This document shows positions 8,820-24,975 of a DNA stretch of 64,000 nt, one piece after another; within the stretch, counting starts at the first letter, position 1, and the number at the start of each line of letters is the position of its first letter. Position numbers and translations under genes: made by a program. Where the stretch lies: contig JALWZS010000038.1 of the NCBI GenBank assembly GCA_027002475.1, positions 46,032-110,031 of the forward strand, read 5' to 3'. The notes under the pieces are model-generated. The model was not told the origin of the DNA. It ran no database searches and saw only the letters and a list, made by a program, of their open reading frames with translations. This stretch comes from a bacterium (lineage in GTDB: Bacteria; Patescibacteriota; 4484-211; GCA-002791395).

Positions 8820-8842
8820 CTTCCTCATTAAGGAAAGTACAA

Positions 8843-11627: not shown

Positions 11628-11631
11628 CATC

Positions 11632-12015: not shown

Positions 12016-12058
12016 GGTTGCGTTTTGGTATATGCATGAGATATATTAATAAAAGACT

Positions 12059-15000
12059 ATGAAACTAAAACTGCCTAGTTTGGTTGTTCTTATTTTAATT
12101 GGCTCATTTGCCTTGGGTAGTGTATTTATTGCTCCGCCAACAAGCGCTGATATTTTTGGCGGTGGAAGTAATTCTGGTGGTAGTATTTTTGGGAATATCT
12201 CTGATGGTGTTAGTGGTATCTTTGATGGGATAAGAGAGGCGTTCCCTGGCGGTGCAGTTATTCCTGCTGACTTACCAACGCCAACCCCAACGCCTGTTGG
12301 ATATACTTCGCCTCCTCCACAACCCCCAGCGTCGCTTGGTGATGTTCGTGAATTGAAACTAAGATTAGAATGGGATACGCTAAGCCTTGGTGGTGAGGCT
12401 GTGTACCCACAAGAAAAAGATCCACTGGTTTGTATACATCTCGGTGACGATCTTGCTGTGAGTGAGGGGTTCTCTGAGTGCGCTGGCCGTGGGTATCCTG
12501 GTGCGGTTGCTTGCGATAGGTGCGGGTTCGCCGATATAAATGATTATGCATTTGACGCCCAAAACCGTTTGGTGCGCAAAGACGTCTTAGGTATGAAGGT
12601 GGAAGCTGGTGCGGATAGTCCGCCGCCACCATCATCGCCACCTGACGGGGGACCTACGGTGGTAGCACCTTATGTGTGGGAGGTTTGTGTGCCTAGGCAA
12701 GAATGTAAGGTGGCTGACTTGACGCATGCGATTGTTGGGTGGTGTGGTCAAAATCCAGTTATTCAGAATACAGCAGGATTTAGTGCGAAAATACCAATTA
12801 ACTCTACTGGACCTAATTCATTCACGTTGCCGAATGCAGTGTCGAATAAGTATATTCGTAGGGATGGTTATGCGTTTAGGTGTGTGATTGCAGACTGTGA
12901 AAGCGGTACGTGTTCTCATGATAATTATGTTGAATTTCAGACTATGATTTACCCATCTAACGCAATCTCGATGTACTTAACTGTAGAAAATCCGTCTCAG
13001 ATCCATACAATAAATAATATTTTAATAAAATCAAATACACTAACCTTTGCTAAAGAAGGAGAAACTCCTCTACCTCACAATCTAGATTACTTAGTAGCTC
13101 AAAATGACAACAATCATAATAATCCACCTGTGGCAAATGATTTTTATAAGAATGACTATAAGCCAAGCGCCACTGGAGCACCTACTGAGGGATGGGGTTA
13201 TAAGCATGGTAATAACCTTACAGACTCGACTACAATAAATGTGAGTGGGGTCGATTTTAAAGTTAAAAAGGACACCTCTGATCCAAGTAGAGATGTTTAT
13301 TATTTTGAGTATGGCCCTTTTGACTTAGCCCCTGGACAAACTAAAAAACTACCTTACCAACCAGCTAGTGCCGAGTTTTCTATGATACCTGGGACGGCTG
13401 CAACAGTACCAGGGAGTGGACCGTCATTGGTACCACTTGCCAAACCATGTGAATGTCAGTCAGTTAAACTGCATGACGTATTAGGTACACCTCCAAATGG
13501 CTGTAATCAAGTAATAACTAATCCAACAATTAATCAGTGTCGTTTGTATTATGGAATAGGCGCAAAGCGTAATGAGGGTGGGACCATCGTTAACTATGCA
13601 GATCACTCAGGAGGATACTCTTGTGACTTGCAAGGAATAACAGTTGATGGTTGTCCACCGCCATGGTGCTTTGACGGAGCGGTCAGTCAAGTTGGTCCAA
13701 TGGACGAATGCGAAAAGATTATACAAAGGTATCCAGAGTTAGACCAGCACCCTGGTGGTCCAAATGGAAAAATAGATAACCCACAAGACTTAAATCTTGA
13801 TGGTGATTTCGATGATCCGGGTGAAGACGAATGGTGGTTCTGGAATATGTCGTCGCAGGGACCTGAGTCATTAAGTTCCTTGGGCTCGCTGGCAAAGGCG
13901 ATATTGCCCAGAGAGTTAGTGTCATTCTTTGGTGGTAAGGCCAAAGATGTCCCCGCTGAACTAGCATCTGTCAACGATGTGTCGGCGTTTGGATGTCCAC
14001 AACCGTGTCAAAACCAGCCGCCACCAGGAGTACAAGGTAAAGGTGGTATTATCCCAAGAGACTTTAACTTCATATGTGATCCGGATGACAAATACGATAG
14101 TGGAGATATGGTTGAAGAAAAGCGTTGTAGTGGAGTCGATTTTGATCCAGCTAAGAACAACAAGACAATTATCCCTCCTATAAATACGAACCACCCAGAT
14201 TTGGCGTATGATCAAATGCTTTTTAAAACATACCGTGACGTGACTGCATTAAAGGGATGTGGTTATAACGCTTCGTCGAATAATTCAGTAATTGGTCCTA
14301 TTCAAGTCGTTGCAGAATATGGCGGACGTGGCGATGCGCGCACTGGTAGATCTGTTCTCTTGGCGTCTATACCAATCGGTGGACGTATTTTAGACGACCA
14401 AGCCAGACCATATGGTTGGCCTGTAACCGGGGAGATTGAGCAAGACTGGGGTTACACTGGGCAAGCGGCAAATCAGGGTCCGTACCGTTCGACTCCATCA
14501 AGCGAGTACGGTGAGTACCGTTATTGTTCTCCTACAGATGCTATGCTCTCGCCTGACGAATTGCTTGCTACGAAGGTCTCTTGTCCTGATATTCCTGATT
14601 CGGACATAGATCAGGCAAACAATAATGCAAAGCCTAAAGCTGATTTAGTTGCTGCAATTAGTAATCCTGGCTCGATTATTAGGAACTGGGTTGCGTGTAC
14701 CCCTAATCCAAATGATGACTGTTGGCAGGAAACTATTGATAATGTAGATAAGTGTTATAACGCGGTGGTTAAAGGCGCTATGGATACAGGGAACGACCCT
14801 GCAATGGCGTTAGCTATTTGGTTGGAGGAGTCTGGCGCAAGTAACTATATGCACTTTCCTGACGTTGCGGACTTTGGATGCACAGCGGCAACACATAATA
14901 ATTTCAATGTACAGCTAGAGTGTTTCAACGGCTTGCAGGATAGTTACTATGACTGGATTCACAATCCAGCTAATTCTGCCAGAGATTGTGTAAAAAATGC

Positions 15001-15211
15001 TCCTACTGGAGAATTAAGCATAGATAAATTCCTGCTCTTGTTCCAAGGTGGTTATCGTGCTTGCGATGAGAATAATCAAGCGGGGAATCAGCACTTTAGG
15101 GATAGAATAAAGGATGCTTATAAAATTACCCAGAAAGACGGAAGGTCGCTTGAAATACCTTGTACTCTAAAATCAACTAAATGGGATGATCCGACATGTC
15201 CACAGCCATGA
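12059..15211 (+). CDS. Large secreted Cys-rich, Pro-rich protein of unknown function
   Basis: 1050 aa. Signal peptide MKLKLPSLVVLILIGSFALGSVFIAPPTSA, then a Gly/Ser-rich segment, PTPTPTP and PPPPSSPP tracts, and many Cys. The C-terminal region (LAIWLEESGASNY...) is weakly lysozyme/SLT-like. Confidence 0.7.
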   Translation: MKLKLPSLVVLILIGSFALGSVFIAPPTSADIFGGGSNSGGSIFGNISDGVSGIFDGIREAFPGGAVIPADLPTPTPTPVGYTSPPPQPPASLGDVRELKLRLEWDTLSLGGEAVYPQEKDPLVCIHLGDDLAVSEGFSECAGRGYPGAVACDRCGFADINDYAFDAQNRLVRKDVLGMKVEAGADSPPPPSSPPDGGPTVVAPYVWEVCVPRQECKVADLTHAIVGWCGQNPVIQNTAGFSAKIPINSTGPNSFTLPNAVSNKYIRRDGYAFRCVIADCESGTCSHDNYVEFQTMIYPSNAISMYLTVENPSQIHTINNILIKSNTLTFAKEGETPLPHNLDYLVAQNDNNHNNPPVANDFYKNDYKPSATGAPTEGWGYKHGNNLTDSTTINVSGVDFKVKKDTSDPSRDVYYFEYGPFDLAPGQTKKLPYQPASAEFSMIPGTAATVPGSGPSLVPLAKPCECQSVKLHDVLGTPPNGCNQVITNPTINQCRLYYGIGAKRNEGGTIVNYADHSGGYSCDLQGITVDGCPPPWCFDGAVSQVGPMDECEKIIQRYPELDQHPGGPNGKIDNPQDLNLDGDFDDPGEDEWWFWNMSSQGPESLSSLGSLAKAILPRELVSFFGGKAKDVPAELASVNDVSAFGCPQPCQNQPPPGVQGKGGIIPRDFNFICDPDDKYDSGDMVEEKRCSGVDFDPAKNNKTIIPPINTNHPDLAYDQMLFKTYRDVTALKGCGYNASSNNSVIGPIQVVAEYGGRGDARTGRSVLLASIPIGGRILDDQARPYGWPVTGEIEQDWGYTGQAANQGPYRSTPSSEYGEYRYCSPTDAMLSPDELLATKVSCPDIPDSDIDQANNNAKPKADLVAAISNPGSIIRNWVACTPNPNDDCWQETIDNVDKCYNAVVKGAMDTGNDPAMALAIWLEESGASNYMHFPDVADFGCTAATHNNFNVQLECFNGLQDSYYDWIHNPANSARDCVKNAPTGELSIDKFLLLFQGGYRACDENNQAGNQHFRDRIKDAYKITQKDGRSLEIPCTLKSTKWDDPTCPQP

Positions 15212-17361
15212 TGAATAGAAAAAGAATACTAGCAATAATAGGAGGAATCGGAATAGCGTTATTTGTATTCTTCGGTACTCGATTTGTCGCGTATAAAACA
15301 GATAATAGTCTATTCCAAAACGAGGTGCGAGCGAGCGGGTCGGTTCAGTGGGGGATAAACATAGATCCAGCAAATCCAGACGGACATCCTTCTGCTGCAA
15401 GTCTTGGTAATGCAGGTTGGGTGAGGGTTGAGTTTAAGGACTGCAGTGATACAGATCCTGTCGGTGCGACTACTATCAGTCAATACACGAATGTTTTGTC
15501 TGAGTATCATAACGCAGGGATGAAGGTACTACTAATACTTGATTATCTAAGCTATCCAAATGCAGCAGATAATATAGATAAATTTGCGAAAAGGGTGGAG
15601 CATGTTGCAGAGAAACTTGGACATGATCTTAATTATATTGACGCGTATGAAATATGGAATGAAGAAGATCTTGCATCAATATACCCTCTTGATACTGCAA
15701 CTTATGCCAGTGTACTATCAGCACTATCTAGTGCAATAAGAGCTAAAGACCCAGGTAAACCCATTGTAATGGGAGGGTTGGCGTCGGGGCAGCCAAGTTA
15801 TGTAAGTTCTGTCAAGAACGCATTAGGAGGTAACCTTGATGCAGTTGATGCAATAGGAGTTCACCCTTACACAAAAGACGTTGACGGATATCCTGGGGGA
15901 GGGACAGGCGACATTATCGAGCTCATAGATCAATATAGGGCTGTGGCAGATAATAAGCCTATTTGGATTACTGAGATGGGGCTTGATACTACCGATGAGG
16001 CGCAGCAAGCGAATTATATTTTAAAATTAGATCAAGAGTTAAATAAACCAAGCAATGCGGGACATGTACCTGTTGTTACTTGGTTCGCCTGGAGTGATGG
16101 AATGGTATCTCCTTTTGGTATTGTAAAGGATTATTCGATAGCTAAGGCATCATATAATTCTTATTTTAATGTGCTTGGCGTATCGATACCAACGGTACGA
16201 GCACAATCGAGTGTCTCTGATATCTCTCCAGAAGGTGGAACTAGTTGTGGTGGGGCGCCAGAAAATCCGGGTCTAACTGCAAAAGAGGGATACATTCATC
16301 CAGGAATTGACATTAGACCGCAAAGGGGTGTTGCTAGCTCAAGCTATGTATACAGTACGCATGCGGGTTTTGTAACTTATGCTGGTCCTGCTCCTGTCAG
16401 TATTAAAGAACGCGGTTGGATGGTGCAAATTGAATCAGACTTAAATAGAGATAATGTGCCTGATGTAATCACTCGTTATACCCACATGATGCCAAATAGT
16501 TTAAGAATAAATGATGTTTGGTACAGGCGTTTTGCTTTTACTCCTGAGTATTTTGTTAGCTTGATTAATGGTATGGACGGAATAGAAAAGTTGCCGTTTG
16601 GGTATGGACCATATGTGGCTAGGAACCAGCTTTTGGGTATGGTTGGGGATAGTGGCAGTCCAGGGCATGTTCATATTCAGTACGAGATTTTGACGAATAG
16701 ATTTAGGTCGCTATATGGATTGGGGCTAGATACTGATGTGCCATATGCATGTTCAGACTCGCCATATGTTGAAGCTTGTTCGCCAGATGCTGGTAGACCA
16801 GGATTTTTCTTCCCACAGAATAGCAGAAAGCCTGCTAGGGTTCGTGGGCCTGTGTACTCAAATGCAGGGTTTGTAACTCCTCCACCAGCATTAACTCCAA
16901 TTGTGATTACTCCAACGCCAGCACCAGCGACTCCTACGCCTGATCCAAACCTACCAACACCGACTCCTGGTCCTACAGCAACTCCAGGTCCAACTCCTCC
17001 TGTAGGACCTGGTTGTGCTGACTTTGATTGCTTCACTATGTGTGCCAGCGTTGATGCTAGCAATACACTTTACGTTGAACTTTTCTGGAATTTCCACGAT
17101 CCCTCAACGAATCCTGGCGCATGTTATTGTGGTGACTTAAGCGATCATGAAATTAGGATCAATGGGGTTTCTTTTGGGCGACCGGCGGAGCTTAATGTGA
17201 TATCAGCTGCCCTGCCTCATAGGGTTTGGACTAACGGTGGGCACTCTGTGGGAGATCAGGTCTGCCGCTATAAAGGGAATTATGTTGCAGTGCCTGGATG
17301 GGACGATGCATGTAGACAACAGAACGATTGGGCTCAGTGTGTTAATGCGGTAGCTAGATAA
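15196..17361 (+). CDS. Membrane-anchored multidomain protein: clan GH-A glycoside hydrolase + M23 peptidase + PT linker + Cys-rich C-terminal module
   Basis: 721 aa. N-terminal TM helix. (beta/alpha)8 glycosidase signatures YEIWNEEDL (acid/base) and IWITEMGLD (nucleophile). M23 motifs HPGIDI (HxxxD) and GHVHIQYE (HxH). PT-rich linker TPTPAPATPTPDPNLPTPTPGPTATPGPTPP. C-terminal module with 10 Cys. Confidence 0.65.
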   Translation: MSTAMMNRKRILAIIGGIGIALFVFFGTRFVAYKTDNSLFQNEVRASGSVQWGINIDPANPDGHPSAASLGNAGWVRVEFKDCSDTDPVGATTISQYTNVLSEYHNAGMKVLLILDYLSYPNAADNIDKFAKRVEHVAEKLGHDLNYIDAYEIWNEEDLASIYPLDTATYASVLSALSSAIRAKDPGKPIVMGGLASGQPSYVSSVKNALGGNLDAVDAIGVHPYTKDVDGYPGGGTGDIIELIDQYRAVADNKPIWITEMGLDTTDEAQQANYILKLDQELNKPSNAGHVPVVTWFAWSDGMVSPFGIVKDYSIAKASYNSYFNVLGVSIPTVRAQSSVSDISPEGGTSCGGAPENPGLTAKEGYIHPGIDIRPQRGVASSSYVYSTHAGFVTYAGPAPVSIKERGWMVQIESDLNRDNVPDVITRYTHMMPNSLRINDVWYRRFAFTPEYFVSLINGMDGIEKLPFGYGPYVARNQLLGMVGDSGSPGHVHIQYEILTNRFRSLYGLGLDTDVPYACSDSPYVEACSPDAGRPGFFFPQNSRKPARVRGPVYSNAGFVTPPPALTPIVITPTPAPATPTPDPNLPTPTPGPTATPGPTPPVGPGCADFDCFTMCASVDASNTLYVELFWNFHDPSTNPGACYCGDLSDHEIRINGVSFGRPAELNVISAALPHRVWTNGGHSVGDQVCRYKGNYVAVPGWDDACRQQNDWAQCVNAVAR

Positions 17362-17366
17362 ATATT

Positions 17367-18356
17367 ATGTTGGATAAAATACGACAATTTACAATTTTAA
17401 CGAAAGCAATGAGTGCGTTCGTCAAGCTAGTTGCAATGGTTATAGTCGTTATCCTTTTGGTGTGGCAGTTGACTGGTCATAAGACAAATGTTGTTGAACA
17501 GAATGCCATAACTAGCTCAACATTTAGCATGGTTGATGCATTAAATACCGTACCTGTTGATGTTAACCTAGAAAAAGATGTCGACAAGTTTGAGGTTTAT
17601 AAAATGCCAATGTTTGCGTTGTCGTTACCTGATGCTAATTTATTTTCAGATGTAACCGCACAATTTGTTGCGCACGCGTTAGGGTTTACTCCAAAGGCTC
17701 AAGTTATGAACTCGGGAGATTTTGCGGGTTATAAGGAAGACGTCAAAACTTTAACTTTTGACAGAAAGTTAGGACAAGTCAACTACTCAACTATTTTAAG
17801 CATTGTTAATAAGGCTATTCCTAAGAGTGAGGCGTCACATAAGGATGTACAAAGTGCAGTTAAAAAGTTTTTTGAGAACTCGAAACTTCCTACTACGTTT
17901 TTTGACTTAGAGAATCTTGAGTATCAATCCATGGTGATGGATTCGGTTGGGGTTTTGTCCCCGGCGGTGTTGACTTCAGGGCGATTAACGAAGGTCGTGA
18001 TTCCTTATCAAGTTTCTGGGGTGCGCATACTACTACCAATTGAGAGTTATATGGTGGTAGATGGTAATGGCACTATTCGACTGATGACATTGTTTTTCCC
18101 GAACATTACTTTAACTGACAAAATGTACACGTTAATGAGTTGGTCTTCGGCAAAAAAGATTGCGCAGTCTGGTGGCGCCGCTGTTATTAGTTATGCTGCT
18201 AATTCTACCAAGGATTTTAGTATTGAGAAATCTTACGCAGCGTATTACATTAATCAAAGAGAATTTTACTCGATCGACAAAAGAAGGATTTTAAAACCAA
18301 TATATGTTTTTGAAGGAGATGGTGGTGTATTAGCAGTACCGGCAGAAAAATTATAA
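17367..18356 (+). CDS. Hypothetical membrane-anchored protein
   Basis: 329 aa, one N-terminal TM (FVKLVAMVIVVILLVWQL). No recognised domain. Starts 6 nt after the upstream stop. Confidence 0.5.
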   Translation: MLDKIRQFTILTKAMSAFVKLVAMVIVVILLVWQLTGHKTNVVEQNAITSSTFSMVDALNTVPVDVNLEKDVDKFEVYKMPMFALSLPDANLFSDVTAQFVAHALGFTPKAQVMNSGDFAGYKEDVKTLTFDRKLGQVNYSTILSIVNKAIPKSEASHKDVQSAVKKFFENSKLPTTFFDLENLEYQSMVMDSVGVLSPAVLTSGRLTKVVIPYQVSGVRILLPIESYMVVDGNGTIRLMTLFFPNITLTDKMYTLMSWSSAKKIAQSGGAAVISYAANSTKDFSIEKSYAAYYINQREFYSIDKRRILKPIYVFEGDGGVLAVPAEKL

Positions 18357-18358
18357 AG

Positions 18359-20659
18359 ATGATTATAAATAAACTTTATACGAAGTTAATTGCATTAACG
18401 GCAGTGGTTTCAGTTGTTGCCGTAGTGCTGTTTGTGCTTGTCGTTCAAGAGGAAAAGCCAACTGCAGTTACCAGTACCGAACCAGTAAGCGCGGCAACCT
18501 GTGATCATTGGTTGGAAAGCGAACCGTTTTATACTAATACCACTAGATCCCATCCTTTGCCATCATTTGCTGCAGGAAACTACTACTACGTTATGTTGAA
18601 GACTCCTGCATCCCACGCAAAATATGCAGAGATATTAAGCGATGGGAGTTTAGGTGAGTGGAAGGTTGCGACTAAGGGAGAGAGCGATAATTCAGGGAGG
18701 GGATATAATGCTGTTTCGTTTGATGGAACTGGTTATTTGTTGCGCTATGGACGTGTCTTGAAGCAGATCACTAGCGCAGATGGAGACATTGTTAACGAGG
18801 CAGATGTTGGGAATGGACCTAATAACGTTGGTGGACATGGTTACTATTGGTTGGGTTCCGTTCTTGCTGATTTTGGGGCAACTCGTTGGGTATATATCTT
18901 TGGTGGCTTTGACTTAGATCCTCATGTTTATGTATTTGACGGCACTTATCGTTCCAACAACTTGGCTAGCGCAAGTACTTGGTCTTGGACCCATATAGGC
19001 AAGAAGTTTCCAGGGGCTTACCCATACAAGGGGGCTTTTTATAAAGCTTCTGACGCATATGGGTTTATTTATGTGGCGGATCGCGACGGAACATTGTATA
19101 AGATACGTGTTGACTCTAATGGTAATTTAGGAACGTGGTCCTCTGCTGGTGTAAACTTTCCATCCGCCGATCGTGGGGATTATTTTGTTGCCAACAACAA
19201 GCTATGGGTGATTAGAGGGTCAAAGGTTTACTATGGAGATATTGATTCTTCCAGCGGGAACATATCCGCTTTTGATGATTCGCCACCTGATTTGCCAGGA
19301 CCTCAAATAGAGATGGATTGGGGGGACGGGCATAATGAAGGTAATTCGTGGGCAATAGTAAATGATGTGATTTATGTCACGGGTCCAGATAGGGTTTACT
19401 ATCTTCCATTAAGTGGCGGTTGTACGCGTGGTGGCGGTGGCGGTGGTTGGACGCCTGGTGTTGGTGGGGCTATAACTTGTAACGTTAAAGAATGGATTGC
19501 AAACGGCCCAAACGTTTTGACCGATCCAATAATATGTCCACGTCCTGAAGCGAGTAAGATAAATCCAGATTATTGTGCCGAAAACCCAACAGATGAAGTC
19601 TGCTTAAATCCTCCACCTCCATCAAGTCGGTGTGTGGACGGTGAAAAGTGTAAATTTAATTTCCAGCCCGATAAGATAGCTCAAATCCCGATGGATAAAG
19701 ATTATGGACAACATGATGGAACTGGGATAATGGCTGGCAAGCGTCAATATCGATATTATGACTACGACAATGATGTATTTATAGATGTCCCACCATATTG
19801 GTTCGGTAGCGGAGGAGGAAGTTTAATTGAAGCTAGTCTGACAAGTACTTCCCCAGCGCCTTATGATGGTTTGTCTGATCCAAGTATAACGGATGAAGCT
19901 CCGTGTGGTTGGCCAACTAATACATCTCATAGAAATGTTTATGCTGGATGTGGCTTCCCTTATACGGCTCACGATCGCGACACTTCAGGTGTAAATGGGA
20001 TTTGTCCAGAAGATATGAACCCACAAGCTCCAATTAGTTCTTGCGCTACAGAGGCATCTAACTATCATAACACTAATAATGGAACAGATATAACAGGTTA
20101 TGCAACTATTTATGCTACGCAAAAGGGGACCGCTTATAGGTGTGTGGATACATTGGATACTGACTACGGTGCCCATGGCTATGGAGTATTTACTGTAGTT
20201 CGAGGGGAGTATTTCACTACCTTAAGTGTACATTTTAGGCCAGTCCCTGCAGTTGATAGTGTTCCAGAATTAACCGATCCAAATGGGAGTCATTTATGTT
20301 GGGGGACAAAGCTTGTAAAAAAATGGGATGTTCAAAGGGGTGATGCCTTGGGAGAGGTTGGGCTTACTGGTTATACGAACGGTCCACACGTACATTATGT
20401 TATATTCCGAAACACCTTGCCCGATTCTAGTAATCCTTCTAAAAAGCTTCCTGATTGGAACCAACCAATCTGCGCCGCTTCGTTTATGGACTTGAACAAT
20501 GATTATTGTCAAGGGTTACCTCCTCAAACAATGAGTGCAAACCCATTTAGTAGCGTAGGCGCTTTTGTTAATAGTATCAATCCGTTTAGTTCTAATACAC
20601 AAGAGAGTACGCCTACACAAGAGAGTGCGCCAGATAGTAATTCTGATTATCGGGGCTAG
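18359..20659 (+). CDS. Membrane-anchored protein with Kelch-like beta-propeller repeats, poly-Gly/Cys-rich segment and C-terminal M23-like peptidase domain
   Basis: 766 aa. N-terminal TM. Repeated blade-like units (YVFDG, IYVADRDGTLYKI, LWVIRGSKVYYGDI). GGGGGGW tract. C-terminal GYTNGPHVHYVIF has the M23 HxH motif. Confidence 0.6.
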   Translation: MIINKLYTKLIALTAVVSVVAVVLFVLVVQEEKPTAVTSTEPVSAATCDHWLESEPFYTNTTRSHPLPSFAAGNYYYVMLKTPASHAKYAEILSDGSLGEWKVATKGESDNSGRGYNAVSFDGTGYLLRYGRVLKQITSADGDIVNEADVGNGPNNVGGHGYYWLGSVLADFGATRWVYIFGGFDLDPHVYVFDGTYRSNNLASASTWSWTHIGKKFPGAYPYKGAFYKASDAYGFIYVADRDGTLYKIRVDSNGNLGTWSSAGVNFPSADRGDYFVANNKLWVIRGSKVYYGDIDSSSGNISAFDDSPPDLPGPQIEMDWGDGHNEGNSWAIVNDVIYVTGPDRVYYLPLSGGCTRGGGGGGWTPGVGGAITCNVKEWIANGPNVLTDPIICPRPEASKINPDYCAENPTDEVCLNPPPPSSRCVDGEKCKFNFQPDKIAQIPMDKDYGQHDGTGIMAGKRQYRYYDYDNDVFIDVPPYWFGSGGGSLIEASLTSTSPAPYDGLSDPSITDEAPCGWPTNTSHRNVYAGCGFPYTAHDRDTSGVNGICPEDMNPQAPISSCATEASNYHNTNNGTDITGYATIYATQKGTAYRCVDTLDTDYGAHGYGVFTVVRGEYFTTLSVHFRPVPAVDSVPELTDPNGSHLCWGTKLVKKWDVQRGDALGEVGLTGYTNGPHVHYVIFRNTLPDSSNPSKKLPDWNQPICAASFMDLNNDYCQGLPPQTMSANPFSSVGAFVNSINPFSSNTQESTPTQESAPDSNSDYRG

Positions 20660-20662
20660 AAA

Positions 20663-21703
20663 ATGACTAAAAAAAAGAAGCAACTAATAATAGGTGGTGT
20701 TGTTGGGTTTATGTTAATTCTTGCATTGGCATATTCTTTGCCACGTTTAACTCACACAGTTACAAGTCCAGAGCCAACTGCAGCGCCACCAGCGGAAATA
20801 ACCCCAAAGGAGCTGCGTAGCGTAAAAGCTATTGAAGCGTCTGATGATTTAAGTGATATGGTCTTTAATGAAGCAAAGGGACTGTATTATATTTCAAGTT
20901 TCGACGAAGGCAAGATTTATGCTATTGGGCTTGAGAGTCAGACCGTAGATGGGGAGATTCCTGTTGTTGCACCAAATAGAATGTTACTAAACCCTGCAAT
21001 AAATAAAATGTATGTTACTTCAGCCGATACGGTAAAAGAGGTTGGTTTAAATAACTTTACGGTTGAGAGAAGTGTTAAAACAGGAGTTCATCCATTAGAG
21101 CTATTGGTTGCAGATAGTGGAAAACGCTTATTTGTTGTGAACGAATTCTCTGATAATGTGGCAGTTATTGATACAGATTCATTCTCGCTTATCGCAACCA
21201 TTCCCGTCGGTAAGAGGCCAGTTGATATTGCAAAGGATAGAAACGGTGAATTCGTTTACGTTGTCAATAAAGAGGATGCATCGGTCTCTAAGATATCGGT
21301 TAGTAATTTAAGTGTGGTATCAACAATTGAAAATGTTGGGCGACCGGTTGTAATTGAAGCATACCCCGGTAAAGACTTGATGCTAATCTTAGATCAATAC
21401 GGCGATAATGTAATTGTACTTGATACAAATACGGACAAAATCGTTAAAACAATTAAAACTGTAGATTATCCTGCTGCTATTGCATTCGATCTTGGTAACA
21501 ATCGCTTTTTTGTTTCAAGTTTTACAAAAAGCTCTATTGGCATAATTGACATTGAAAAAGAAGCAATGGTATCTGAACTGCAACTTGGAACTGCATTCCA
21601 ACCAATCTCTGGGCTTAACAATATGATTTACAACGCACAAAGCAAGTCACTTATTGTTACAAACACAAATACCGGCAAGGTCTTTTTCGTGCCGGTTGAC
21701 TAA
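20663..21703 (+). CDS. YVTN-family beta-propeller repeat protein, membrane-anchored
   Basis: 346 aa. N-terminal TM. Repeated ~40-aa units (KMYVTSADTVKEVGL, RLFVVNEFSDNVAVIDTDS, FVYVVNKEDASVSKIS, RFFVSSFTKSSIGIIDI) typical of YVTN/NHL-type propellers. Confidence 0.6.
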   Translation: MTKKKKQLIIGGVVGFMLILALAYSLPRLTHTVTSPEPTAAPPAEITPKELRSVKAIEASDDLSDMVFNEAKGLYYISSFDEGKIYAIGLESQTVDGEIPVVAPNRMLLNPAINKMYVTSADTVKEVGLNNFTVERSVKTGVHPLELLVADSGKRLFVVNEFSDNVAVIDTDSFSLIATIPVGKRPVDIAKDRNGEFVYVVNKEDASVSKISVSNLSVVSTIENVGRPVVIEAYPGKDLMLILDQYGDNVIVLDTNTDKIVKTIKTVDYPAAIAFDLGNNRFFVSSFTKSSIGIIDIEKEAMVSELQLGTAFQPISGLNNMIYNAQSKSLIVTNTNTGKVFFVPVD

Positions 21704-21754
21704 TGCCTGTTTAAGCCTTGACACTGCTATATTCTGTATCTATACTGAAGACGT

Positions 21755-22285
21755 ATGTTCTCTAAAATCTTACTGCGCCTTTTAAAAGAAGCTTTGTTCC
21801 CGGCAGTGCTAGTGCTGCTTACTAAGGTTGCAGCCATCATGATTTTTGTGCATGCATTTTCTTTAGCTTGGAGCTTGGAGGTTAAGACATTTATTCCTGA
21901 TTTTACATTCGAAAACCAAGACGTTTCTGTTTTTGTTAATTCGTACTCTAACCTGTTTGTATTTTTAGTTGTTGTGTTTGGGTTTGCTTGGGTATTAGCT
22001 AGAGCGTATTACTTTCACGATACACATATAAAGCCGTCTTTAATTCTAAGGCTTTTGTCATGGAATTTAACCGGACTTTTAACAAGTAGTCACGAAATTT
22101 ATCACAAAGGAGTTGTTTGGATTTCTTATCTATGGCTAATAACACTCCTTATTGGAGTGCATACATTGCTTGGCATTAATTATGTTTGGGTTTTTGTGTT
22201 TGCGTTGGCTTCAAGCGTACTTGCAACTTGGTACTTTATTGCTGACGTAGAAAGGGAACTAGTTCATCATGAAAGCACTATCTAA
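21755..22285 (+). CDS. Hypothetical polytopic membrane protein (~4 TM)
   Basis: 176 aa with four hydrophobic segments. The 3' end overlaps the next gene. Confidence 0.45.
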   Translation: MFSKILLRLLKEALFPAVLVLLTKVAAIMIFVHAFSLAWSLEVKTFIPDFTFENQDVSVFVNSYSNLFVFLVVVFGFAWVLARAYYFHDTHIKPSLILRLLSWNLTGLLTSSHEIYHKGVVWISYLWLITLLIGVHTLLGINYVWVFVFALASSVLATWYFIADVERELVHHESTI

Positions 22286-23036
22286 TCTCGCACTAACACT
22301 AATTTTATTTGGTCTATTTATGGTACCTGTGATTGCTATTCATAGGATGGTTTCTTTTGAGACTGTACCAAATAAAGGTGTTGTTGCTGGAGCTAGAACT
22401 ATCGACTCAAGTGATTTAAATATAATTCCAAATACGTCCGATTTTGATAAGTATGCAAGTTTTGCACCACATTCATTTGAGAATGGAGTTTATAAAGACA
22501 ACGTTACGGTAACATCTTTTCAACGACAGCAAGCAACGTACCGTGGACTTTATACACTTTACAATGTTTCAAAAGATCCAATAAAGCTAACAATTGTAGG
22601 CGATATTGCAGTACCTACCGATGCGACGTTTGATAGGATTGTTTTAGGGTTTGGCAATAACACTTTTGGTGAAAAGCTGTCTGCAGATCTTAAAAAGGGT
22701 ACGTCATTAATCCCAATGGATGTGCCTCTAGAAGGGGTTAATGTGGGGGATAAGATTTTAATTGGAGATGAATTAGTAAGTGTACTTCGAATTACCCCAA
22801 CTCATTTAGTAACAATGCCACTACAAAACACACATAAAGCAGGTGAAAAGATGTATCCTCAATCTGTAGTTCTAACACCAGGTGAAATTGTTTTCCCTGA
22901 ATCAGGGGTATATGTTCTAGAGGCAGGTGAAAAGGTTTTGGTCAACCTTGAAGTAAAAGGCTCTGCAAGGTTGTTGCAGCAAGATCAAAAAGTAACGGTT
23001 CCGCTCGAAATTAGAGCACAAAGATTAGACTCTTAA
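22269..23036 (+). CDS. Hypothetical secreted protein
   Basis: 255 aa, N-terminal signal/TM (LALTLILFGLFMVPVIAI). Last gene of the plus-strand operon. Confidence 0.45.
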   Translation: MKALSNLALTLILFGLFMVPVIAIHRMVSFETVPNKGVVAGARTIDSSDLNIIPNTSDFDKYASFAPHSFENGVYKDNVTVTSFQRQQATYRGLYTLYNVSKDPIKLTIVGDIAVPTDATFDRIVLGFGNNTFGEKLSADLKKGTSLIPMDVPLEGVNVGDKILIGDELVSVLRITPTHLVTMPLQNTHKAGEKMYPQSVVLTPGEIVFPESGVYVLEAGEKVLVNLEVKGSARLLQQDQKVTVPLEIRAQRLDS

Positions 23037-23055
23037 ACGGTTTTAGCCTCTTTGC

Positions 23056-24870
23056 TTACAAATCCGCAGCAGTCAATATATCAAAACGTGTTGTCCAAAT
23101 AGCGTCTGTTCCAGGAGATTTTAGGTTAAAGACAAACTTAAATCGATTGGCGTCGATATCAACAACAGAGCCATTGTTAAAATACACACGAACTGTTTTG
23201 GTTTGGGCTGTATTTGCCCCCGACTTTCCGTTTTCGTCAAGCACTTCAATGGCATTAAAGTTGGTGATTGGGGTTATTCCTGATTTGTTTAGTGCGTCAA
23301 CGATCTCACTTGATGTAAGCTCGCCAATTTGGTTGTTGTAACTTTCTGGGAGAAGTGCAGCATTGGCTAAATCTGTAACTTGCTCAATTGATAGCCATGG
23401 TTCATCTCCCCATGCCTTGTGATACCACGGAGAACCTGCGTAATCTTTACCCTCGTAGGGCTTCCCTTTGGCGTCAAAGTCGGCGATACTAACTGAGTAT
23501 GGTCGGTAACCGCCCCATACCTGTTGAGTGGTTAAAGTAAATCCGCCAGCCCCAATCGAGTACCATGCCTCAATTGGCTCGCCTTGATAAGTAATTACAA
23601 TTCCGCGTGTACTCTCTACAGCTTCTCTCCAGTACTCTCCGCACAAACCGTTGACCTTACTATCTCCAACATATACCTGACATTGTTGTGTCGTACAAAT
23701 AGGGTTTTGACCGTTATTGGTGTACTTTAGCGCATATGTGCGTGATATTATTGCTTGGACTTTAAGAATCTCAATGCCGCCTCGATCAGGCTTGCCCCAG
23801 CACGATGGCATTTCTCCTATTCCGAGTAGGTACTTGTCTTCAAATGGGAGTGTTCTTCCGTCTGTTAAGGTGATTGTTTTTGGTGCGTCCCATTTTTGTA
23901 GTTCTACGCCCTTAAAATACGCTTTTATTATCTCGTCTGCTGTTTGCCCAGCGACAGCACGCCCTAGTGCTCCATATTGGCTTAACCCGACCCGATGAGG
24001 ATATCCATATGTCCAAAATGAGAAATAGACCTTACCATCCTTAGGTGGGGATTTCTCTATCGCTGCCTCGTCTATTTCGATGTTTCCAACAGACGTTGAA
24101 GCTAGCGCTGCTGCTGCTTTTCTTGCTAAGATATCGCGTTGCTTTTGGGTTAGCTGATTTATCTTTTCGTCAATACCAATTAATGCTTGGTTTAAGTCTT
24201 GCATTCTAGCTTGTGCGGCAGCAAGATTGCTTTGTGTTTTAGAAATCTCTCCTTGAAGCGCATTTTGTTTAGCCACAAGTTCTTGCTTTTGTATAGTTAA
24301 CTCGTCTTTTATCTTTGCTAAGACTTCTCGAATATCCTGAATAGTTTGGAGTTGCTCGCCGAGGTTATCTGCATCCCGCTTTATCGAATACGTGACTGCT
24401 CTTTTGTAAATTAGGTTTTTTGTTAAATCTTTTAGCGTCTTTGCTGCAAAAATATGCGATAGCCATCCTGGAGCTTGCTGCATATACATCTGCCTTATGG
24501 CTTCGTGCATTAGTTCTAATCGTTCATTAATTAACTTTTCTGTTTCATCAATTTGCGCGTTTACCTTTTCAAGCTCGGCCTCCTTTTCCTTAATTGATTC
24601 TTGAGTAACTGCAACTTGCTGTTTGGTTGATTGATAGCTTTGTTGCATCGAAACTAAAGAATTTTCATACTGCGCCTTTAGTGCTTTTAGTTGGTCTAGC
24701 GCTTTTTGGTTAGCATCTTTTTGCTCTTTAGCTTTTTGTAGTTCTTCTTGAGTTTGGTCGAGTTGTTTGTCTAAATCGCTTAATGAATCCCCAAATGTGC
24801 GTGGTACAAATATAAAAGTTGCGATTAGTATAAGTACTCCGGTTAGTATAAGTGGAAACTTCCTGTTCAT
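23056..24870 (-). CDS. SpoIID/LytB-domain protein with long N-terminal coiled coil
   Basis: 604 aa. Signal/TM, then ~250 aa of heptad-rich coiled coil (LDKQLDQTQEELQKAKEQ...). The C-terminal domain carries the SpoIID/LytB signature YLLGIGEMPSCWG...LKVQAIISRTYA...CTTQQCQVYVG. Confidence 0.7.
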   Translation of the reverse strand: MNRKFPLILTGVLILIATFIFVPRTFGDSLSDLDKQLDQTQEELQKAKEQKDANQKALDQLKALKAQYENSLVSMQQSYQSTKQQVAVTQESIKEKEAELEKVNAQIDETEKLINERLELMHEAIRQMYMQQAPGWLSHIFAAKTLKDLTKNLIYKRAVTYSIKRDADNLGEQLQTIQDIREVLAKIKDELTIQKQELVAKQNALQGEISKTQSNLAAAQARMQDLNQALIGIDEKINQLTQKQRDILARKAAAALASTSVGNIEIDEAAIEKSPPKDGKVYFSFWTYGYPHRVGLSQYGALGRAVAGQTADEIIKAYFKGVELQKWDAPKTITLTDGRTLPFEDKYLLGIGEMPSCWGKPDRGGIEILKVQAIISRTYALKYTNNGQNPICTTQQCQVYVGDSKVNGLCGEYWREAVESTRGIVITYQGEPIEAWYSIGAGGFTLTTQQVWGGYRPYSVSIADFDAKGKPYEGKDYAGSPWYHKAWGDEPWLSIEQVTDLANAALLPESYNNQIGELTSSEIVDALNKSGITPITNFNAIEVLDENGKSGANTAQTKTVRVYFNNGSVVDIDANRFKFVFNLKSPGTDAIWTTRFDILTAADL

Positions 24871-24975
24871 TGTAATTTAATGATAGCAAATATCTTGCTT
24901 GGCGTATGTTGTGTAGAGCTTGAGGTCTTATTAATTTTGGCGCGAAAATAACTGTATAATCAAGAGAGCTAAACC

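What the first reader, a model, noticed from the sequence alone, without database searches (positions are those of the whole stretch)
12059..24870. Eight-gene operon of giant Cys-rich secreted protein, two M23 peptidase fusions, two beta-propellers and membrane proteins, faced by a SpoIID-like coiled-coil protein: candidate envelope-lytic / cell-cell interaction system
From 12059 to 23036 eight plus-strand genes are packed with stops and starts overlapping or within 6 nt, so they are almost certainly one transcript. All eight products carry a signal peptide or an N-terminal TM anchor. The gene products are listed below.
- A 1050-aa Gly/Pro/Cys-rich secreted protein with a weakly lysozyme-like C-terminus (LAIWLEESGASNY).
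- A fusion of a clan GH-A glycosidase (EIWNEEDL / ITEMG) with an M23 metallopeptidase (HPGIDI / HVHIQ), a PT-rich linker and a 10-Cys C-terminal module.
- A TM protein of unknown function.
- A Kelch-like propeller with a poly-Gly tract and an M23-like domain (GPHVHY).
- A YVTN propeller.
- A 4-TM membrane protein and a secreted protein.
The convergent downstream gene encodes a SpoIID/LytB domain (peptidoglycan lytic-transglycosylase/amidase-activator family) behind a ~250-aa coiled-coil stalk. Glycan-cleaving, peptide-cleaving, propeller and stalk modules together in one locus resemble neither a standard divisome nor a sporulation locus. They would fit a surface apparatus for remodelling or attacking peptidoglycan, for example host or prey attachment in an episymbiont. 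The locus also lies inside a disrupted ribosomal superoperon (see the separate finding), which suggests acquisition. None of the larger proteins beyond the motif-bearing segments is recognisable, so most of the ~3,900 aa encoded here is undescribed.
Basis: partly seen in the sequence, partly recalled or inferred. Interest (0 to 1): 0.78.

Follow-up and report, generated by a model that had tools for sequence, protein, structure and literature searches.

The report
WWE3 cell-wall-cutting gene cassette
A tiny uncultivated bacterium (candidate division WWE3) carries a conserved block of seven membrane-anchored or secreted proteins with several cell-wall-cutting enzyme modules; related copies sit inside its relatives' type IV secretion gene clusters, so it probably opens a cell wall, its own or a host's.

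Summary
The locus is real, but it has seven plus-strand genes, not eight (12059-23036), plus the convergent SpoIID-like gene.

**Confirmed**
- All products have an N-terminal hydrophobic segment.
- O2 is a PslG-like clan GH-A glycosidase plus an M23-type domain.
- O4 ends in a LytM-like domain.
- O5 is a YVTN propeller.

**Not supported**
- No Kelch family matched O4.
- There is no sign of recent acquisition. The order S10-AlaRS-FtsA-like-505aa-RuvX-O1…O7-SpoIID-TatD is kept in WWE3 relatives at 30-60% protein identity, and there are no phage, tRNA or repeat signals.

**New**
- The cassette O1 core + M23, O3, O4 C-terminal half and O5 recurs, collinear, inside WWE3 type IV secretion-like clusters (pilin-like, PrgI/VirB3, VirB4).
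- In most O1-core proteins the O2-type M23 domain is fused to the core.
- The O1 core is very rare: about 26 of the 150 listed hits (188 in all) among 1.84 billion representatives.
- The lysozyme-like domain defines an undescribed family, seen next to M23, VanY, amidase, SLT and CHAP domains.

**Reading:** a lineage-specific peptidoglycan-breaching cassette, paralogous to the T4SS hydrolase module. Its target (self or host) is unresolved. It is a new variant of a known kind, of moderate interest.

The parts
8989..10113 (+). FtsA/PilM-like actin-fold protein (374 aa). Conserved upstream neighbour and probable start of the transcription unit.
   Evidence: PF14450 FtsA 1.2e-12 and PilM_2 7e-8. 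TIGR01174 5e-24, below its cut-off. Promoter-like site at 8946-8974. Orthologues sit directly upstream of the cassette in L002, L004, L005, L006, L007, L011, L013 and L021.
10110..11627 (+). Bitopic 505-aa protein of unknown function, with one TM segment at about aa 123-141. Its start overlaps the FtsA-like stop by 4 nt.
   Evidence: Hydropathy. Only weak Baseplate_J and GlxA-barrel hits. No PDB sequence relative. Co-conserved with the cassette.
11632..12015 (+). RuvX (YqgF) nuclease, 43 nt upstream of O1.
   Evidence: PF03652 8e-17. No promoter-like match in the gap 12016-12058.
12059..15211 (+). O1: secreted 1050-aa protein with 34 Cys, made of a signal peptide, a Cys-rich core and a lysozyme-fold domain.
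   Evidence: N-terminal hydrophobic segment aa 7-25 followed by TSA/DI. No Pfam, NCBIfam, PHROG or PDB sequence hit. Eleven homologues among 5.8 billion clusters.
12341..14548 (+). O1 Cys-rich core (aa ~95-830), fold unknown. Ends with RPYGWPVTGEIEQDWG, which resembles the first strand of an M23 domain.
   Evidence: Many invariant Cys and motifs in alignments A1 and A2. About 26 of the 150 listed hits (188 hits in all, among 1.84 billion representatives) cover it. AlphaFold model poor, pLDDT 48. Foldseek found nothing significant. Relatives insert CBM60 or VanY domains, or fuse an M23 domain after it.
14639..15208 (+). O1 C-terminal lysozyme-fold domain (aa 861-1050). Candidate catalytic residues E923/E924-S925 and D938.
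15196..17361 (+). O2: N-terminally anchored 721-aa fusion protein. The database start is 4 codons later (717 aa).
15328..16185 (+). O2 clan GH-A (PslG/GH39/GH5-like) glycosidase domain with both catalytic Glu motifs (WNEE, ITEMG).
   Evidence: PF00150 9e-7, above its cut-off. PslG 4zn2 at 1.3e-5 aligns WNE and TE. In homologues this domain is fused to Amidase_2, SH3b, M23 or C39-like domains.
16228..16935 (+). O2 M23-type domain (aa 345-580). HPGID is invariant. The second motif reads HVHIQ.
   Evidence: PF01551 1.2e-4, below its cut-off. Homologues carry PF01551. Invariant H24, D28 and H86 in A9. Weak PDB profile hits to M23 enzymes. This domain is the C-terminal fusion partner of most O1-core proteins.
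16936..17358 (+). O2 Pro/Thr linker and C-terminal 8-Cys module.
   Evidence: Sequence. The module is found only in the closest relative, P0002.
17367..18356 (+). O3: bitopic 329-aa protein of unknown fold. It always follows the O1-core/M23 gene or genes.
   Evidence: TM at aa 14-32. No Pfam, NCBIfam or PDB hit. hhalign 99.5% to the O3-like proteins of T4SS-type clusters.
18359..20659 (+). O4: anchored 766-aa protein with a ~50-aa repeat domain (aa 45-352), a poly-Gly tract, a Cys-containing middle part and a LytM-like C-terminal domain (aa ~520-700).
   Evidence: Self-hhalign offset of ~50 aa at 91%. No Kelch hit in 10 orthologues. Profile against TagE M23 at 1.8e-5. HVH is present, but the first zinc motif reads NNGTD. 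Orthologues add an N-terminal S8 subtilase. aa 362-753 are homologous to the O4-like proteins of T4SS-type clusters at 99.9%.
20663..21703 (+). O5: anchored YVTN/YncE-type beta-propeller.
   Evidence: TIGR02276 4e-18 and PF21783 3.7e-7, both above their cut-offs. hhalign 97.7% to the O5-like proteins in T4SS-type clusters L014 and L015.
21718..21746 (+). Sigma-70-like promoter match (TTGACA, 17 nt, TATACT) in the O5-O6 gap.
   Evidence: Best match (11 of 12) in 6500-26300. Sequence. This is a consensus match only; promoter-like sites are not enriched over shuffles.
21755..22285 (+). O6: ~4-TM membrane protein, 176 aa, of unknown family.
   Evidence: Hydropathy. No family hits. Not detectably related to PrgI/VirB3 (hhalign below 1%). 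Orthologues in L002, L004, L007 and L011.
22269..23036 (+). O7: anchored or secreted 255-aa protein of unknown family.
   Evidence: Orthologues in L002, L004, L007 and L011. No homology to proteins of the T4SS-type clusters.
23056..24870 (-). Convergent SpoIID/LytB-domain protein (604 aa): N-terminal anchor, ~230-aa coiled coil (24106-24789) and SpoIID domain (23446-24033).
   Evidence: PF08486 3.4e-14 and TIGR02669 2e-36, above their cut-offs. SpoIID structures 4rwr and 5i1t at 1e-12 to 2e-10. About 50% identical orthologues in the same convergent position in L002 and L007.

Best explanation
The locus is a vertically inherited cell-envelope operon specific to candidate division WWE3 (Candidate Phyla Radiation, CPR). 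It encodes a membrane-anchored or secreted multi-enzyme cassette that cuts peptidoglycan in both of its bond classes.

**Glycan cutters**
- O1's C-terminal lysozyme-fold domain.
- The neighbouring SpoIID-like lytic transglycosylase.
- O2's PslG-like GH-A domain may add a further polysaccharide specificity.

**Peptide cutters**
- O2's M23-type domain.
- O4's LytM-like domain, which could instead be regulatory.
- S8 or VanY modules take this role in relatives.

**Probable scaffold or targeting parts:** the Cys-rich O1 core, O3, the O4 repeat domain and the O5 propeller.

The five-gene core (O1-O5) is a paralogue of a cassette embedded in WWE3 type IV secretion-like clusters. The most likely job is therefore the one VirB1, PrgK and TraG do for monoderm T4SSs: locally opening a cell wall so that an envelope-spanning or cell-cell contact structure can be built or can act.

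**Shown:** location signals, domain identities, the lysozyme fold, conserved synteny, homology and collinearity with T4SS-embedded cassettes, and the O1-core/M23 fusions.

**Inferred:** enzymatic activity, complex formation, co-transcription, and whether the wall being cut belongs to the cell itself or to a host.
For: - **Location.** N-terminal anchor or signal on all products.
- **O2.** PF00150 is above its cut-off. The PslG alignment covers both catalytic Glu residues. HPGID is invariant in the M23-type domain.
- **O4.** LytM-like by profile.
- **SpoIID-like neighbour**.
- **Synteny.** FtsA-like-505aa-RuvX-O1-O2-O3-O4-O5-O6-O7-SpoIID(-)-TatD is kept whole in L002 and L007. The stretches covered in L004, L011 and L021 keep the same order, and L013 keeps it as far as O1.
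- **T4SS-type clusters.**
  - L010: a weak T4SS_pilin hit, O1core-M23, O3-like, a GH5 protein, PrgI (2e-11) and VirB4 (1e-24).
  - L015: pilin-like, O1core-M23, O3-like, O4-like, O5-like, PrgI-like and VirB4-like.
  - hhalign support: 99.5% for O3, 99.9% for O4 and 97.7% for O5.
- **Functional link between O1 and O2.** The O2-type M23 domain is fused C-terminally to the O1 core in 12 O1-core proteins.
- **Tandem duplication** of the cassette in L012.
- **Literature.**
  - Patescibacterial T4SSs resemble monoderm conjugation systems and lack relaxases.
  - Their VirB1 and VirB8 homologues are mostly undetected.
  - Peptidase and lysozyme homologues next to virB4 are essential for epibiotic growth (PMC12102498; PMC10633639).
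Against: - The 64-kb window has no VirB4, PrgI/VirB3 or pilin gene.
- O6 and O7 show no homology to T4SS proteins.
- The window-type cassette sits among housekeeping genes, next to an FtsA-like gene. That fits a self-directed growth or division role equally well.
- Both M23 calls are below Pfam's gathering score in the window proteins.
- O2's second zinc motif reads HVHIQ. The profile alignment places Gln where the zinc-binding His is expected.
- O4 lacks the His of HxxxD.
- The O1 core (about 730 aa), O3, O6 and O7 have no assignable fold.
- No activity, expression or localisation data exist.
Confidence: 0.55

Rival explanations
1. Self-directed autolysin complex for growth or division. The cassette, together with the FtsA-like protein, the 505-aa bitopic protein and the coiled-coil SpoIID-like enzyme, remodels or splits the cell's own wall, for example at the septum. 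Its resemblance to the T4SS cassette would reflect only common ancestry of the hydrolase modules.
For: - Fixed position next to FtsA-like, RuvX and SpoIID-like genes among housekeeping genes, in all window-type relatives.
- No promoter-like site between RuvX and O1.
- No VirB4 or PrgI in the window.
- From general knowledge: 'coiled coil + wall hydrolase' is the architecture of the division hydrolases and activators EnvC, PcsB and CwlO.
Against: - The FtsA-like protein scores below the FtsA equivalog cut-off and also hits PilM.
- A division machine would be expected outside this narrow lineage. The O1 core appears in only about 26 of the 150 listed hits (188 in all) among 1.84 billion representatives.
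- Module content is highly variable between relatives: S8, VanY, CBM60 and GH domains are swapped, and O2 ranges from 578 to 1675 aa. This is unusual for core division proteins.
Confidence: 0.25
2. Host-directed attack or attachment apparatus of an episymbiont. The secreted O1 and the anchored hydrolases digest the wall or surface polysaccharide of a host cell at the contact site, independently of any T4SS.
For: - Homologues carry carbohydrate-binding modules: CBM60 in O1 relatives, and CBM6 and CBM35 with the lysozyme-like domain.
- The PslG-like domain suggests an exopolysaccharide substrate.
- Rapid module swapping is typical of interaction or arms-race proteins.
- Cultivated CPR bacteria grow as epibionts (PMC10633639).
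Against: - Nothing is known about the lifestyle of this WWE3 organism.
- Most products are membrane-anchored rather than released, which limits their reach.
- No adhesin family was detected.
- No immunity-like gene was recognised.
Confidence: 0.15
3. Recently acquired island (prophage, ICE remnant or other horizontally transferred block) that disrupted a ribosomal superoperon.
For: - The r-protein gene order is indeed rearranged. The L3-L15 block lies upstream of RNase J-S12-S7-EF-G-EF-Tu-S10, and SecY follows the locus.
- GC of the cassette is slightly higher than that of its flanks: 0.43-0.44 against 0.40-0.41.
- The cassette is related to T4SS-cluster genes, and such clusters are often mobile elsewhere.
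Against: - The same order, S12-S7-EF-G-EF-Tu-S10-AlaRS-FtsA-like-505aa-RuvX-O1…, is found in relatives with 37-58% O1 identity.
- The GC difference lies within the window's own range of 0.38-0.46.
- No PHROG hits beyond trivial ones.
- No relatives in viral contigs.
- No plasmid or phage tblastn hits for the lysozyme-like domain.
- No tRNA within 19 kb and no flanking direct repeats.
- No integrase or relaxase ORF was recognised.
Confidence: 0.03

Closest known systems
Cell-wall hydrolases of monoderm conjugative T4SSs (PrgK of pCF10, TraG of pIP501, CD419/Orf17-type of Tn916-like elements; the VirB1 function)
   Same: - N-terminally anchored, multi-module peptidoglycan hydrolases that combine a lysozyme/SLT-fold glycosidase with a peptidase (LytM in PrgK).
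- Encoded inside T4SS clusters.
- WWE3 relatives place the homologous cassette between pilin-like genes and PrgI/VirB4.
   Different: - The modules are spread over several genes.
- No CHAP/NlpC-P60 domain was found.
- There is a 730-aa Cys-rich core of unknown fold.
- Extra partners are present: O3, the propellers and a GH-A domain.
- The window copy has no VirB4, VirB3 or pilin nearby.
- Sequence similarity of the lysozyme-like domain to SLT models is nil.
Patescibacterial T4SS of Southlakia epibionticum (SEML1_0006-0019) and the CPR T4SS class described in PMC12102498
   Same: - A monoderm-type T4SS without a relaxase, with pilin-like genes, in CPR genomes.
- Peptidase and lysozyme homologues next to virB4 are reported as essential for epibiotic growth.
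   Different: - It belongs to a different CPR lineage (Saccharimonadia versus WWE3).
- No sequence comparison with the SEML1 proteins was possible here.
- The window locus is a copy of the accessory cassette without the ATPase.
SpoIID/SpoIIP/SpoIIM engulfment machinery of endospore formers
   Same: - A SpoIID-domain lytic transglycosylase works together with a peptide-cleaving partner and a membrane protein.
- A degenerate LytM protein (SpoIIQ) takes part in the same process (general knowledge).
   Different: - No SpoIIP or SpoIIM family hit.
- CPR bacteria are not known to sporulate.
- The SpoIID-like protein carries a long coiled coil, and its conserved segments align in a different order from 4rwr.
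PslG (GH39-like endoglycosidase of Pseudomonas Psl exopolysaccharide)
   Same: It is the best solved relative of O2's N-terminal domain. Both catalytic Glu motifs align.
   Different: - Only 1.3e-5 over about 120 residues.
- O2's domain is fused to an M23-type domain, and its homologues are fused to amidase or SH3b modules. This points to a wall-associated substrate.
- The substrate is unknown.
LytM-domain factors with degenerate active sites (EnvC, NlpD, SpoIIQ, DipM)
   Same: O4's C-terminal domain keeps the HxH region but lacks the His of HxxxD. DipM and other M23 structures are hit by the profile.
   Different: - A conserved His lies 6-7 residues upstream and could substitute, so inactivity is not established.
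- O4 has a repeat domain, and its relatives have an S8 protease, that these factors lack.

Membership tests
Lysozyme-like superfamily (g-type lysozyme / SLT lytic transglycosylase / GH73): O1 aa 861-1050 | Alpha-helical lysozyme fold | tested here: met
Lysozyme-like superfamily: O1 aa 861-1050 | Catalytic Glu at the C-terminal end of a helix (the E-S motif of family-1 lytic transglycosylases) | tested here: met
   The helix at model residues 54-65 ends in W-L-E63-E64-S65. E63 and E64 are at least 90% conserved in 28 diverse sequences. Superposition on a catalytic Glu was not inspected residue by residue.
Pfam SLT (PF01464) or any curated lysozyme family: O1 aa 861-1050 | Match to the family's sequence model | tested here: not met
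   No Pfam or NCBIfam hit for O1. No PDB sequence hit with the 28-sequence profile at E up to 10. One of 48 domain-bearing proteins has a Pfam SLT hit; whether it overlaps this domain was not determined.
Peptidase M23 (PF01551): O2 aa 345-580 | HxxxD zinc motif | tested here: met
   In HPGIDI, H24 and D28 are invariant in 13 sequences.
Peptidase M23: O2 aa 345-580 | HxH motif (catalytic His and third zinc ligand) | tested here: inconclusive
   The window protein reads G-H-V-H-I-Q-Y-E. The profile-to-PDB alignment puts H-I-Q where H-L-H is expected. The fused relatives read Q-L-H or H-L-H. No His in this motif is invariant.
Peptidase M23: O2 | Score above Pfam's gathering threshold | tested here: not met
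   22.6 bits against 28.7. Homologues P0005, P0010 and P0013 carry precomputed PF01551 hits.
Peptidase M23 / LytM: O4 aa ~520-700 | HxxxD and HxH motifs | tested here: inconclusive
   HVH is present. The first motif is NNGTD here, and Y..MD or G..VD in orthologues, so the His is absent. Pfam gives 22.5 bits, below 28.7. The orthologue profile hits TagE M23 at 1.8e-5. Four of 10 orthologues hit PF01551, the best at 3e-9.
Clan GH-A glycoside hydrolase (GH5/GH39, PslG-like): O2 aa ~45-330 | Family model above cut-off, plus the acid/base (N-E) and nucleophile (T-E) glutamates | tested here: met
   PF00150 29.1 bits against 23.5. The PslG alignment pairs eiWNEedl with qvWNEpnl and iWiTEmG with iWsTEwG. 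The substrate is not testable here.
Kelch beta-propeller: O4 aa 45-352 | Match to Kelch repeat models | tested here: not met
   No Kelch hit at E up to 0.1 in O4 or in 9 relatives. Internal ~50-aa repeats were detected (self-hhalign 91%). A propeller is therefore possible, but its family is unassigned.
YVTN/YncE beta-propeller: O5 | Repeat and family models above cut-off | tested here: met
   TIGR02276 65.1 bits against 27.85. PF21783 30.2 bits against 27.1.
SpoIID/LytB: 23056-24870(-) | Domain models above cut-off and similarity to solved SpoIID structures | tested here: met
   PF08486 53.7 bits against 23. TIGR02669 126 bits against 83. 4rwr at 9e-13. Catalytic residues were not checked.
Type IV secretion system (monoderm MPF-FATA-like): the window locus as a T4SS cluster | VirB4 ATPase in the cluster (the signature protein) | tested here: not met
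   No tblastn hit for WWE3 VirB4, PrgI, pilin-like or other T4SS-cluster proteins anywhere in the 64-kb window.
Type IV secretion system: the window locus | VirB3/PrgI-like small membrane protein | tested here: not met
   O6 against WWE3 PrgI-like proteins gives hhalign probability 0.2%. The topology also differs, ~4 TM against 1-2. No PF12666 hit.
Type IV secretion system: accessory hydrolase cassette | Homologous genes embedded in bona fide T4SS clusters | tested here: met
   L010 carries PrgI (2e-11) and VirB4-like domains (1e-24) beside O1core-M23 and O3-like genes. L014 and L015 add O4-like and O5-like genes. hhalign gives 97.7-99.9%.
VirB8-like (NTF2-fold) T4SS subunit: O3 | NTF2-like fold behind an N-terminal TM helix | not tested
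This is a hypothesis only.

The most novel reading that the evidence does not exclude
The window-type locus is a T4SS-derived extracellular 'wall-breaching' machine that has lost its ATPase. In this reading WWE3 cells duplicated the hydrolase and scaffold module of their secretion system: O1 core, a split M23 domain shared between O1 and O2, O3 as a cryptic VirB8-like subunit, a LytM-like protein and a propeller. They then fixed the copy at a housekeeping site, under an FtsA/PilM-like partner, to open the wall of a host cell at the contact site. If so, the O1 core and the new lysozyme-like family would be the missing VirB1/VirB8-type components of CPR secretion systems.
Probability: 0.2. Interest if true: 0.8.

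Novelty: new variant of a known kind. Interest (0 to 1): 0.55.

Why it matters
CPR/Patescibacteria make up a large share of bacterial diversity and appear to live on other cells. How they breach walls at the contact site is largely unknown.

The published survey of their T4SSs could not find VirB1- and VirB8-type components in most classes (PMC12102498). This locus offers the following:
- Concrete candidate genes for that function in WWE3.
- An undescribed lysozyme-fold domain family of about 160 clusters. It has no curated model and sits next to M23, VanY, amidase and CHAP modules.
- A very rare 730-aa Cys-rich core.
- A gene-fusion link between O1 and O2.
- A paralogous cassette without a VirB4 that is fixed among housekeeping genes.

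It yields testable enzymes (E924, H368/D372) for zymography on self and host sacculi. The kind of system, multi-module wall hydrolases serving an envelope machine, is already known, so the novelty lies in the parts and the arrangement.

Tried and rejected
- **Full-length O1 structure.** The AlphaFold model from a 12-sequence alignment was poor (pLDDT 48). Foldseek against the PDB gave nothing significant, best E 0.28. It was not used.
- **Sequence searches for the unknown proteins.**
  - PDB profile searches for O1, O3, O7, the 505-aa protein and the lysozyme-like domain found nothing.
  - Pfam at E up to 10 on eight O3 relatives gave no consistent family.
- **O6 as PrgI/VirB3, and O7 as one of the 229-, 419- or 434-aa T4SS-cluster proteins.** Rejected; hhalign probability below 1%.
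- **T4SS genes elsewhere in the window.** None found.
- **Phage or mobile origin.** Rejected on these results:
  - no meaningful PHROG hits;
  - no relatives in viral contigs;
  - no plasmid or phage tblastn hits for the lysozyme-like domain;
  - no nearby tRNA;
  - no flanking repeats.
- **Exact look-up of O2 from its first ATG.** It failed because databases start the gene 4 codons later (P0001).
- **Source names for lysozyme-domain proteins.** All are unnamed metagenomic proteins.
- **Walking along the 114-kb source contig to look for virB4.** Not possible, because only window-encoded proteins can be looked up.
- **Sporulation-type DMP machine.** Considered and rejected; no SpoIIP or SpoIIM was found.

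Full report
**1. What is in the sequence**

Between 12059 and 23036 the plus strand carries seven ORFs, not eight.

| Gene | Coordinates | Length |
|---|---|---|
| O1 | 12059-15211 | 1050 aa |
| O2 | 15196-17361 | 721 aa |
| O3 | 17367-18356 | 329 aa |
| O4 | 18359-20659 | 766 aa |
| O5 | 20663-21703 | 346 aa |
| O6 | 21755-22285 | 176 aa |
| O7 | 22269-23036 | 255 aa |

A 604-aa gene converges on them at 23056-24870. The junctions are -16, +5, +2, +3, +51 and -17 nt.

The 51-nt O5-O6 gap holds the best sigma-70-like match of the surrounding 20 kb: TTGACA, 17 nt, TATACT, at 21718-21746. Promoter-like sites as a class are not enriched over shuffles.

The 43-nt gap between RuvX and O1 has no such match. 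The three upstream genes are packed just as tightly: an FtsA/PilM-like gene at 8989-10113, a 505-aa bitopic protein at 10110-11627, and RuvX at 11632-12015. The transcription unit therefore probably begins upstream of the reported start, and O6-O7 may have their own promoter.

A hydropathy scan shows an N-terminal hydrophobic segment in all seven products and in the convergent protein. O6 has about four. O1's N-terminus looks like a cleavable signal peptide (…PPTSA/DIF).

**2. Organism and conservation**

O2 is 100% identical to a database protein on a 114-kb NCBI contig, which also appears as ENA scaffolds of the metagenome assembly JOHN19-1_SAMN10217877_METAG. Named relatives are 'candidate division WWE3 bacterium'.

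| Relatives | Gene order kept |
|---|---|
| L002, L007 | FtsA-like, ~500-aa bitopic protein, RuvX, O1-O7, SpoIID-like (convergent), TatD |
| L004, L011 | Same order; the sequence held ends in O7 |
| L021 | S12, S7, EF-G, EF-Tu and S10 upstream; the sequence held ends in O5 |
| L013 | Same order as far as O1 |
| L006 | O5 moved ahead of O1 |

Protein identities to the window range from about 30 to 60%.

The window's own upstream flank reads L3…L15, AAA, UDG, RNase J, S12, S7, EF-G, EF-Tu, S10, AlaRS. The ribosomal superoperon is therefore rearranged, but the arrangement is shared with divergent relatives.

Other signals also argue against recent acquisition:
- GC of the cassette (0.43-0.44) lies inside the window's range of 0.38-0.46.
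- There are no tRNAs within 19 kb and no flanking repeats.
- There are no meaningful PHROG hits.
- No relatives were found in viral contigs.

**3. Protein by protein**

*O1*
- It has no Pfam, NCBIfam, PHROG or PDB sequence match. Only 11 homologues were found among 5.8 billion clusters.
- Alignment shows a Cys-rich core (aa ~95-830) with many invariant Cys and motifs, followed by a C-terminal ~190-aa domain present in only some members. Other members insert CBM60 or VanY, or end in M23 instead.
- An exhaustive profile search of 1.84 billion representatives found 188 hits. About 26 of the 150 listed cover the core. The rest match only the C-terminal domain, which occurs in proteins of many lengths.
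- In 48 of those proteins the co-resident Pfam domains are M23 (8), VanY (2), Amidase_2, SLT, CHAP and CBM6/35.
- The full-length AlphaFold model was poor (pLDDT 48).
- The C-terminal domain, modelled with a 28-sequence alignment, gave pLDDT 91.5 and pTM 0.88.
- The nearly invariant W-[LI]-E-E-S-G-A-S motif (E923, E924, S925) ends a helix, as the catalytic Glu does in these enzymes. D938 is also nearly invariant.
- No relative of the domain was found in plasmid or phage collections.

*O2*
- aa ~45-330 is a clan GH-A domain (PF00150 above its cut-off).
- Its closest solved relative is PslG, with both catalytic Glu motifs aligned.
- In homologues this domain is fused to Amidase_2, SH3b, M23 or C39-like modules, which suggests a wall-associated substrate.
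- aa 345-580 is an M23-type domain. HPGID is invariant, and so is the central His. Pfam scores below its gathering threshold.
- The second zinc motif is unusual: H-V-H-I-Q here, against Q-L-H or H-L-H in fused relatives.
- This M23 subtype is the conserved part of O2 across relatives.
- It is fused directly after the O1 core in 12 O1-core proteins. That is a Rosetta-stone argument that O1 and O2 work together.
- O1's core ends with RPYGWPVTGEIEQDWG. This resembles the first strand of an M23 domain, and O2 lacks such a strand. Strand complementation between the two is possible but is pure inference.
- The Pro/Thr linker is present. The module after it has 8 Cys and occurs only in the nearest relative.

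*O3*
- A bitopic protein with no detectable family.
- It invariably follows the O1-core/M23 gene or genes.

*O4*
- aa 45-352 contain ~50-aa internal repeats (self-hhalign 91%). No Kelch or other propeller model matches in 10 relatives.
- A poly-Gly tract and a Cys-containing segment follow.
- The C-terminal domain is LytM-like (profile against TagE at 1.8e-5). HVH is kept, but the His of HxxxD is missing.
- Orthologues add an N-terminal S8 subtilase.

*O5, O6, O7*
- O5 is an anchored YVTN/YncE propeller.
- O6 (~4 TM) and O7 have no family assignment.

*The convergent protein*
- It combines an anchor, a ~230-aa coiled coil and a SpoIID/LytB domain.

**4. The link to type IV secretion**

More divergent O1 relatives (L008-L010, L014, L015) encode a single 680-760-aa protein made of the O1 core plus the M23 domain, followed by an O3-like gene.

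In L010 the neighbours, in order, are:
- a PMT_2 protein
- a DUF2298 protein
- a weak T4SS-pilin hit
- a 1466-aa protein
- O1core-M23
- O3-like
- a GH5 protein
- a 434-aa protein
- PrgI (VirB3-like, 2e-11)
- a CarboxypepD_reg protein
- a 229-aa protein
- a VirB4-like ATPase (TraG P-loop 1e-24; CagE_TrbE_VirB)

L015 has the order: pilin-like ×2, a 1295-aa protein, O1core-M23, O3-like, O4-like (equal to O4 aa 362-753), an O5-like propeller, PrgI-like, further proteins, and VirB4-like.

Profile-profile comparison supports the homologies at 99.5% for O3, 99.9% for O4 and 97.7% for O5. O6 and O7 have no counterpart (below 1%). L012 carries two cassettes in tandem. The 64-kb window itself has no VirB4, PrgI or pilin-like gene.

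Published work gives the context (PMC12102498; PMC10633639):
- Patescibacterial T4SSs are homologous to monoderm conjugation machines and usually lack a relaxase.
- Their VirB1 and VirB8 homologues are mostly undetectable.
- In Southlakia epibionticum the T4SS genes are essential for epibiotic growth, including peptidase and lysozyme homologues beside virB4.

**5. Interpretation**

*Shown*
- An extracytoplasmic, lineage-restricted, syntenically stable cassette.
- It combines a lysozyme-fold glycosidase, a GH-A glycosidase, one M23-type and one LytM-like domain, a propeller and unknown scaffold proteins.
- A SpoIID-type enzyme lies next to it.
- Its five-gene core is paralogous to a cassette embedded in T4SS-like clusters of the same phylum.

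*Inferred*
- The products form a membrane-proximal complex that opens peptidoglycan locally. This is the role VirB1, PrgK and TraG play for monoderm T4SSs.

*Unresolved*
- The target wall may be the cell's own, for assembly of an envelope structure or for division. The housekeeping context and the FtsA-like neighbour favour that reading.
- Or it may be a host's. The carbohydrate-binding modules in relatives, the rapid module swapping and the CPR lifestyle favour that.

I give 0.55 to the general explanation. The remainder is split among a purely self-directed autolysin role (0.25), a T4SS-independent host-attack role (0.15) and recent acquisition (0.03).

**6. Novelty**

Multi-module wall hydrolases that serve envelope machines are a known kind of system. 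Four things are new here:
- the parts: a very rare 730-aa Cys-rich core, an uncurated lysozyme-fold family, and O3, O6 and O7;
- the fission and fusion pattern linking O1 and O2;
- the collinearity with T4SS clusters;
- the existence of a copy without a VirB4, fixed among housekeeping genes.

That makes it a new variant of a known kind and moderately interesting (0.55). It would be more interesting if the T4SS-derived, host-directed reading proves right.

The gene count, the 'Kelch' label, the single-transcript claim and the acquisition inference were not.

Noticed in passing
window 23056-24870 (-): The two conserved SpoIID segments align to solved SpoIID (4rwr) in swapped order. Query aa 286-326 match SpoIID 279-319, while query aa 365-463 match SpoIID 85-194. 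This suggests a circularly permuted or rearranged SpoIID domain behind the coiled coil.
   Followed up: no
window 38319-39119 (-) and 39127-39903 (-): A DsbA-like thioredoxin and a DsbD_TM-like membrane protein lie side by side. An extracytoplasmic disulfide system fits the many cysteines of O1 (34), O4 (16) and O2 (12).
   Followed up: no
window 1-8819 and L019 (upstream of the window): The ribosomal protein gene order is rearranged. The L3…L15 block precedes AAA, UDG, RNase J, S12, S7, EF-G, EF-Tu and S10. AlaRS and the cassette then separate S10 from SecY-Adk. The S12…S10-AlaRS-cassette part is shared with relative L021.
   Followed up: partly
window ~12520-12650 (O1 aa ~156-198): The ENA assembly of the same sample is broken inside O1. 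Scaffold_343 ends about 590 nt into O1, and scaffold_382 starts with the last 894 aa. The break lies near the Pro-rich low-complexity stretch, so it may reflect strain variation or an assembly problem there.
   Followed up: no
L012:126-11416: Two cassettes in tandem on one metagenomic contig: O1-M23-O3-O4-like-O5, then O1-O3-O4-like. The cassette therefore behaves as a duplicating unit.
   Followed up: partly
window 25897-26259 (+): A small ~3-TM protein (120 aa) with no family hit lies between TatD and SecY. It is conserved in the same place in L007 (48% identity).
   Followed up: no
L021:13035-18062 and L021:19067-22384: In the closest relative, O2 is 1675 aa and O4 is 1105 aa, against 721 and 766 aa here. 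The enzyme-bearing genes expand and contract strongly between near relatives, while O3 and O5 keep their size.
   Followed up: no
L022:13862-20483: Next to an M23+PPC homologue of O2 (P0013) lies a Piwi-domain (prokaryotic Argonaute) gene, followed by an N6/N4 methyltransferase and a ResIII helicase. This is probably a defence island unrelated to the cassette.
   Followed up: no
window 42921-44489 (-): A three-domain multicopper oxidase, which is unexpected in a reduced CPR genome.
   Followed up: no
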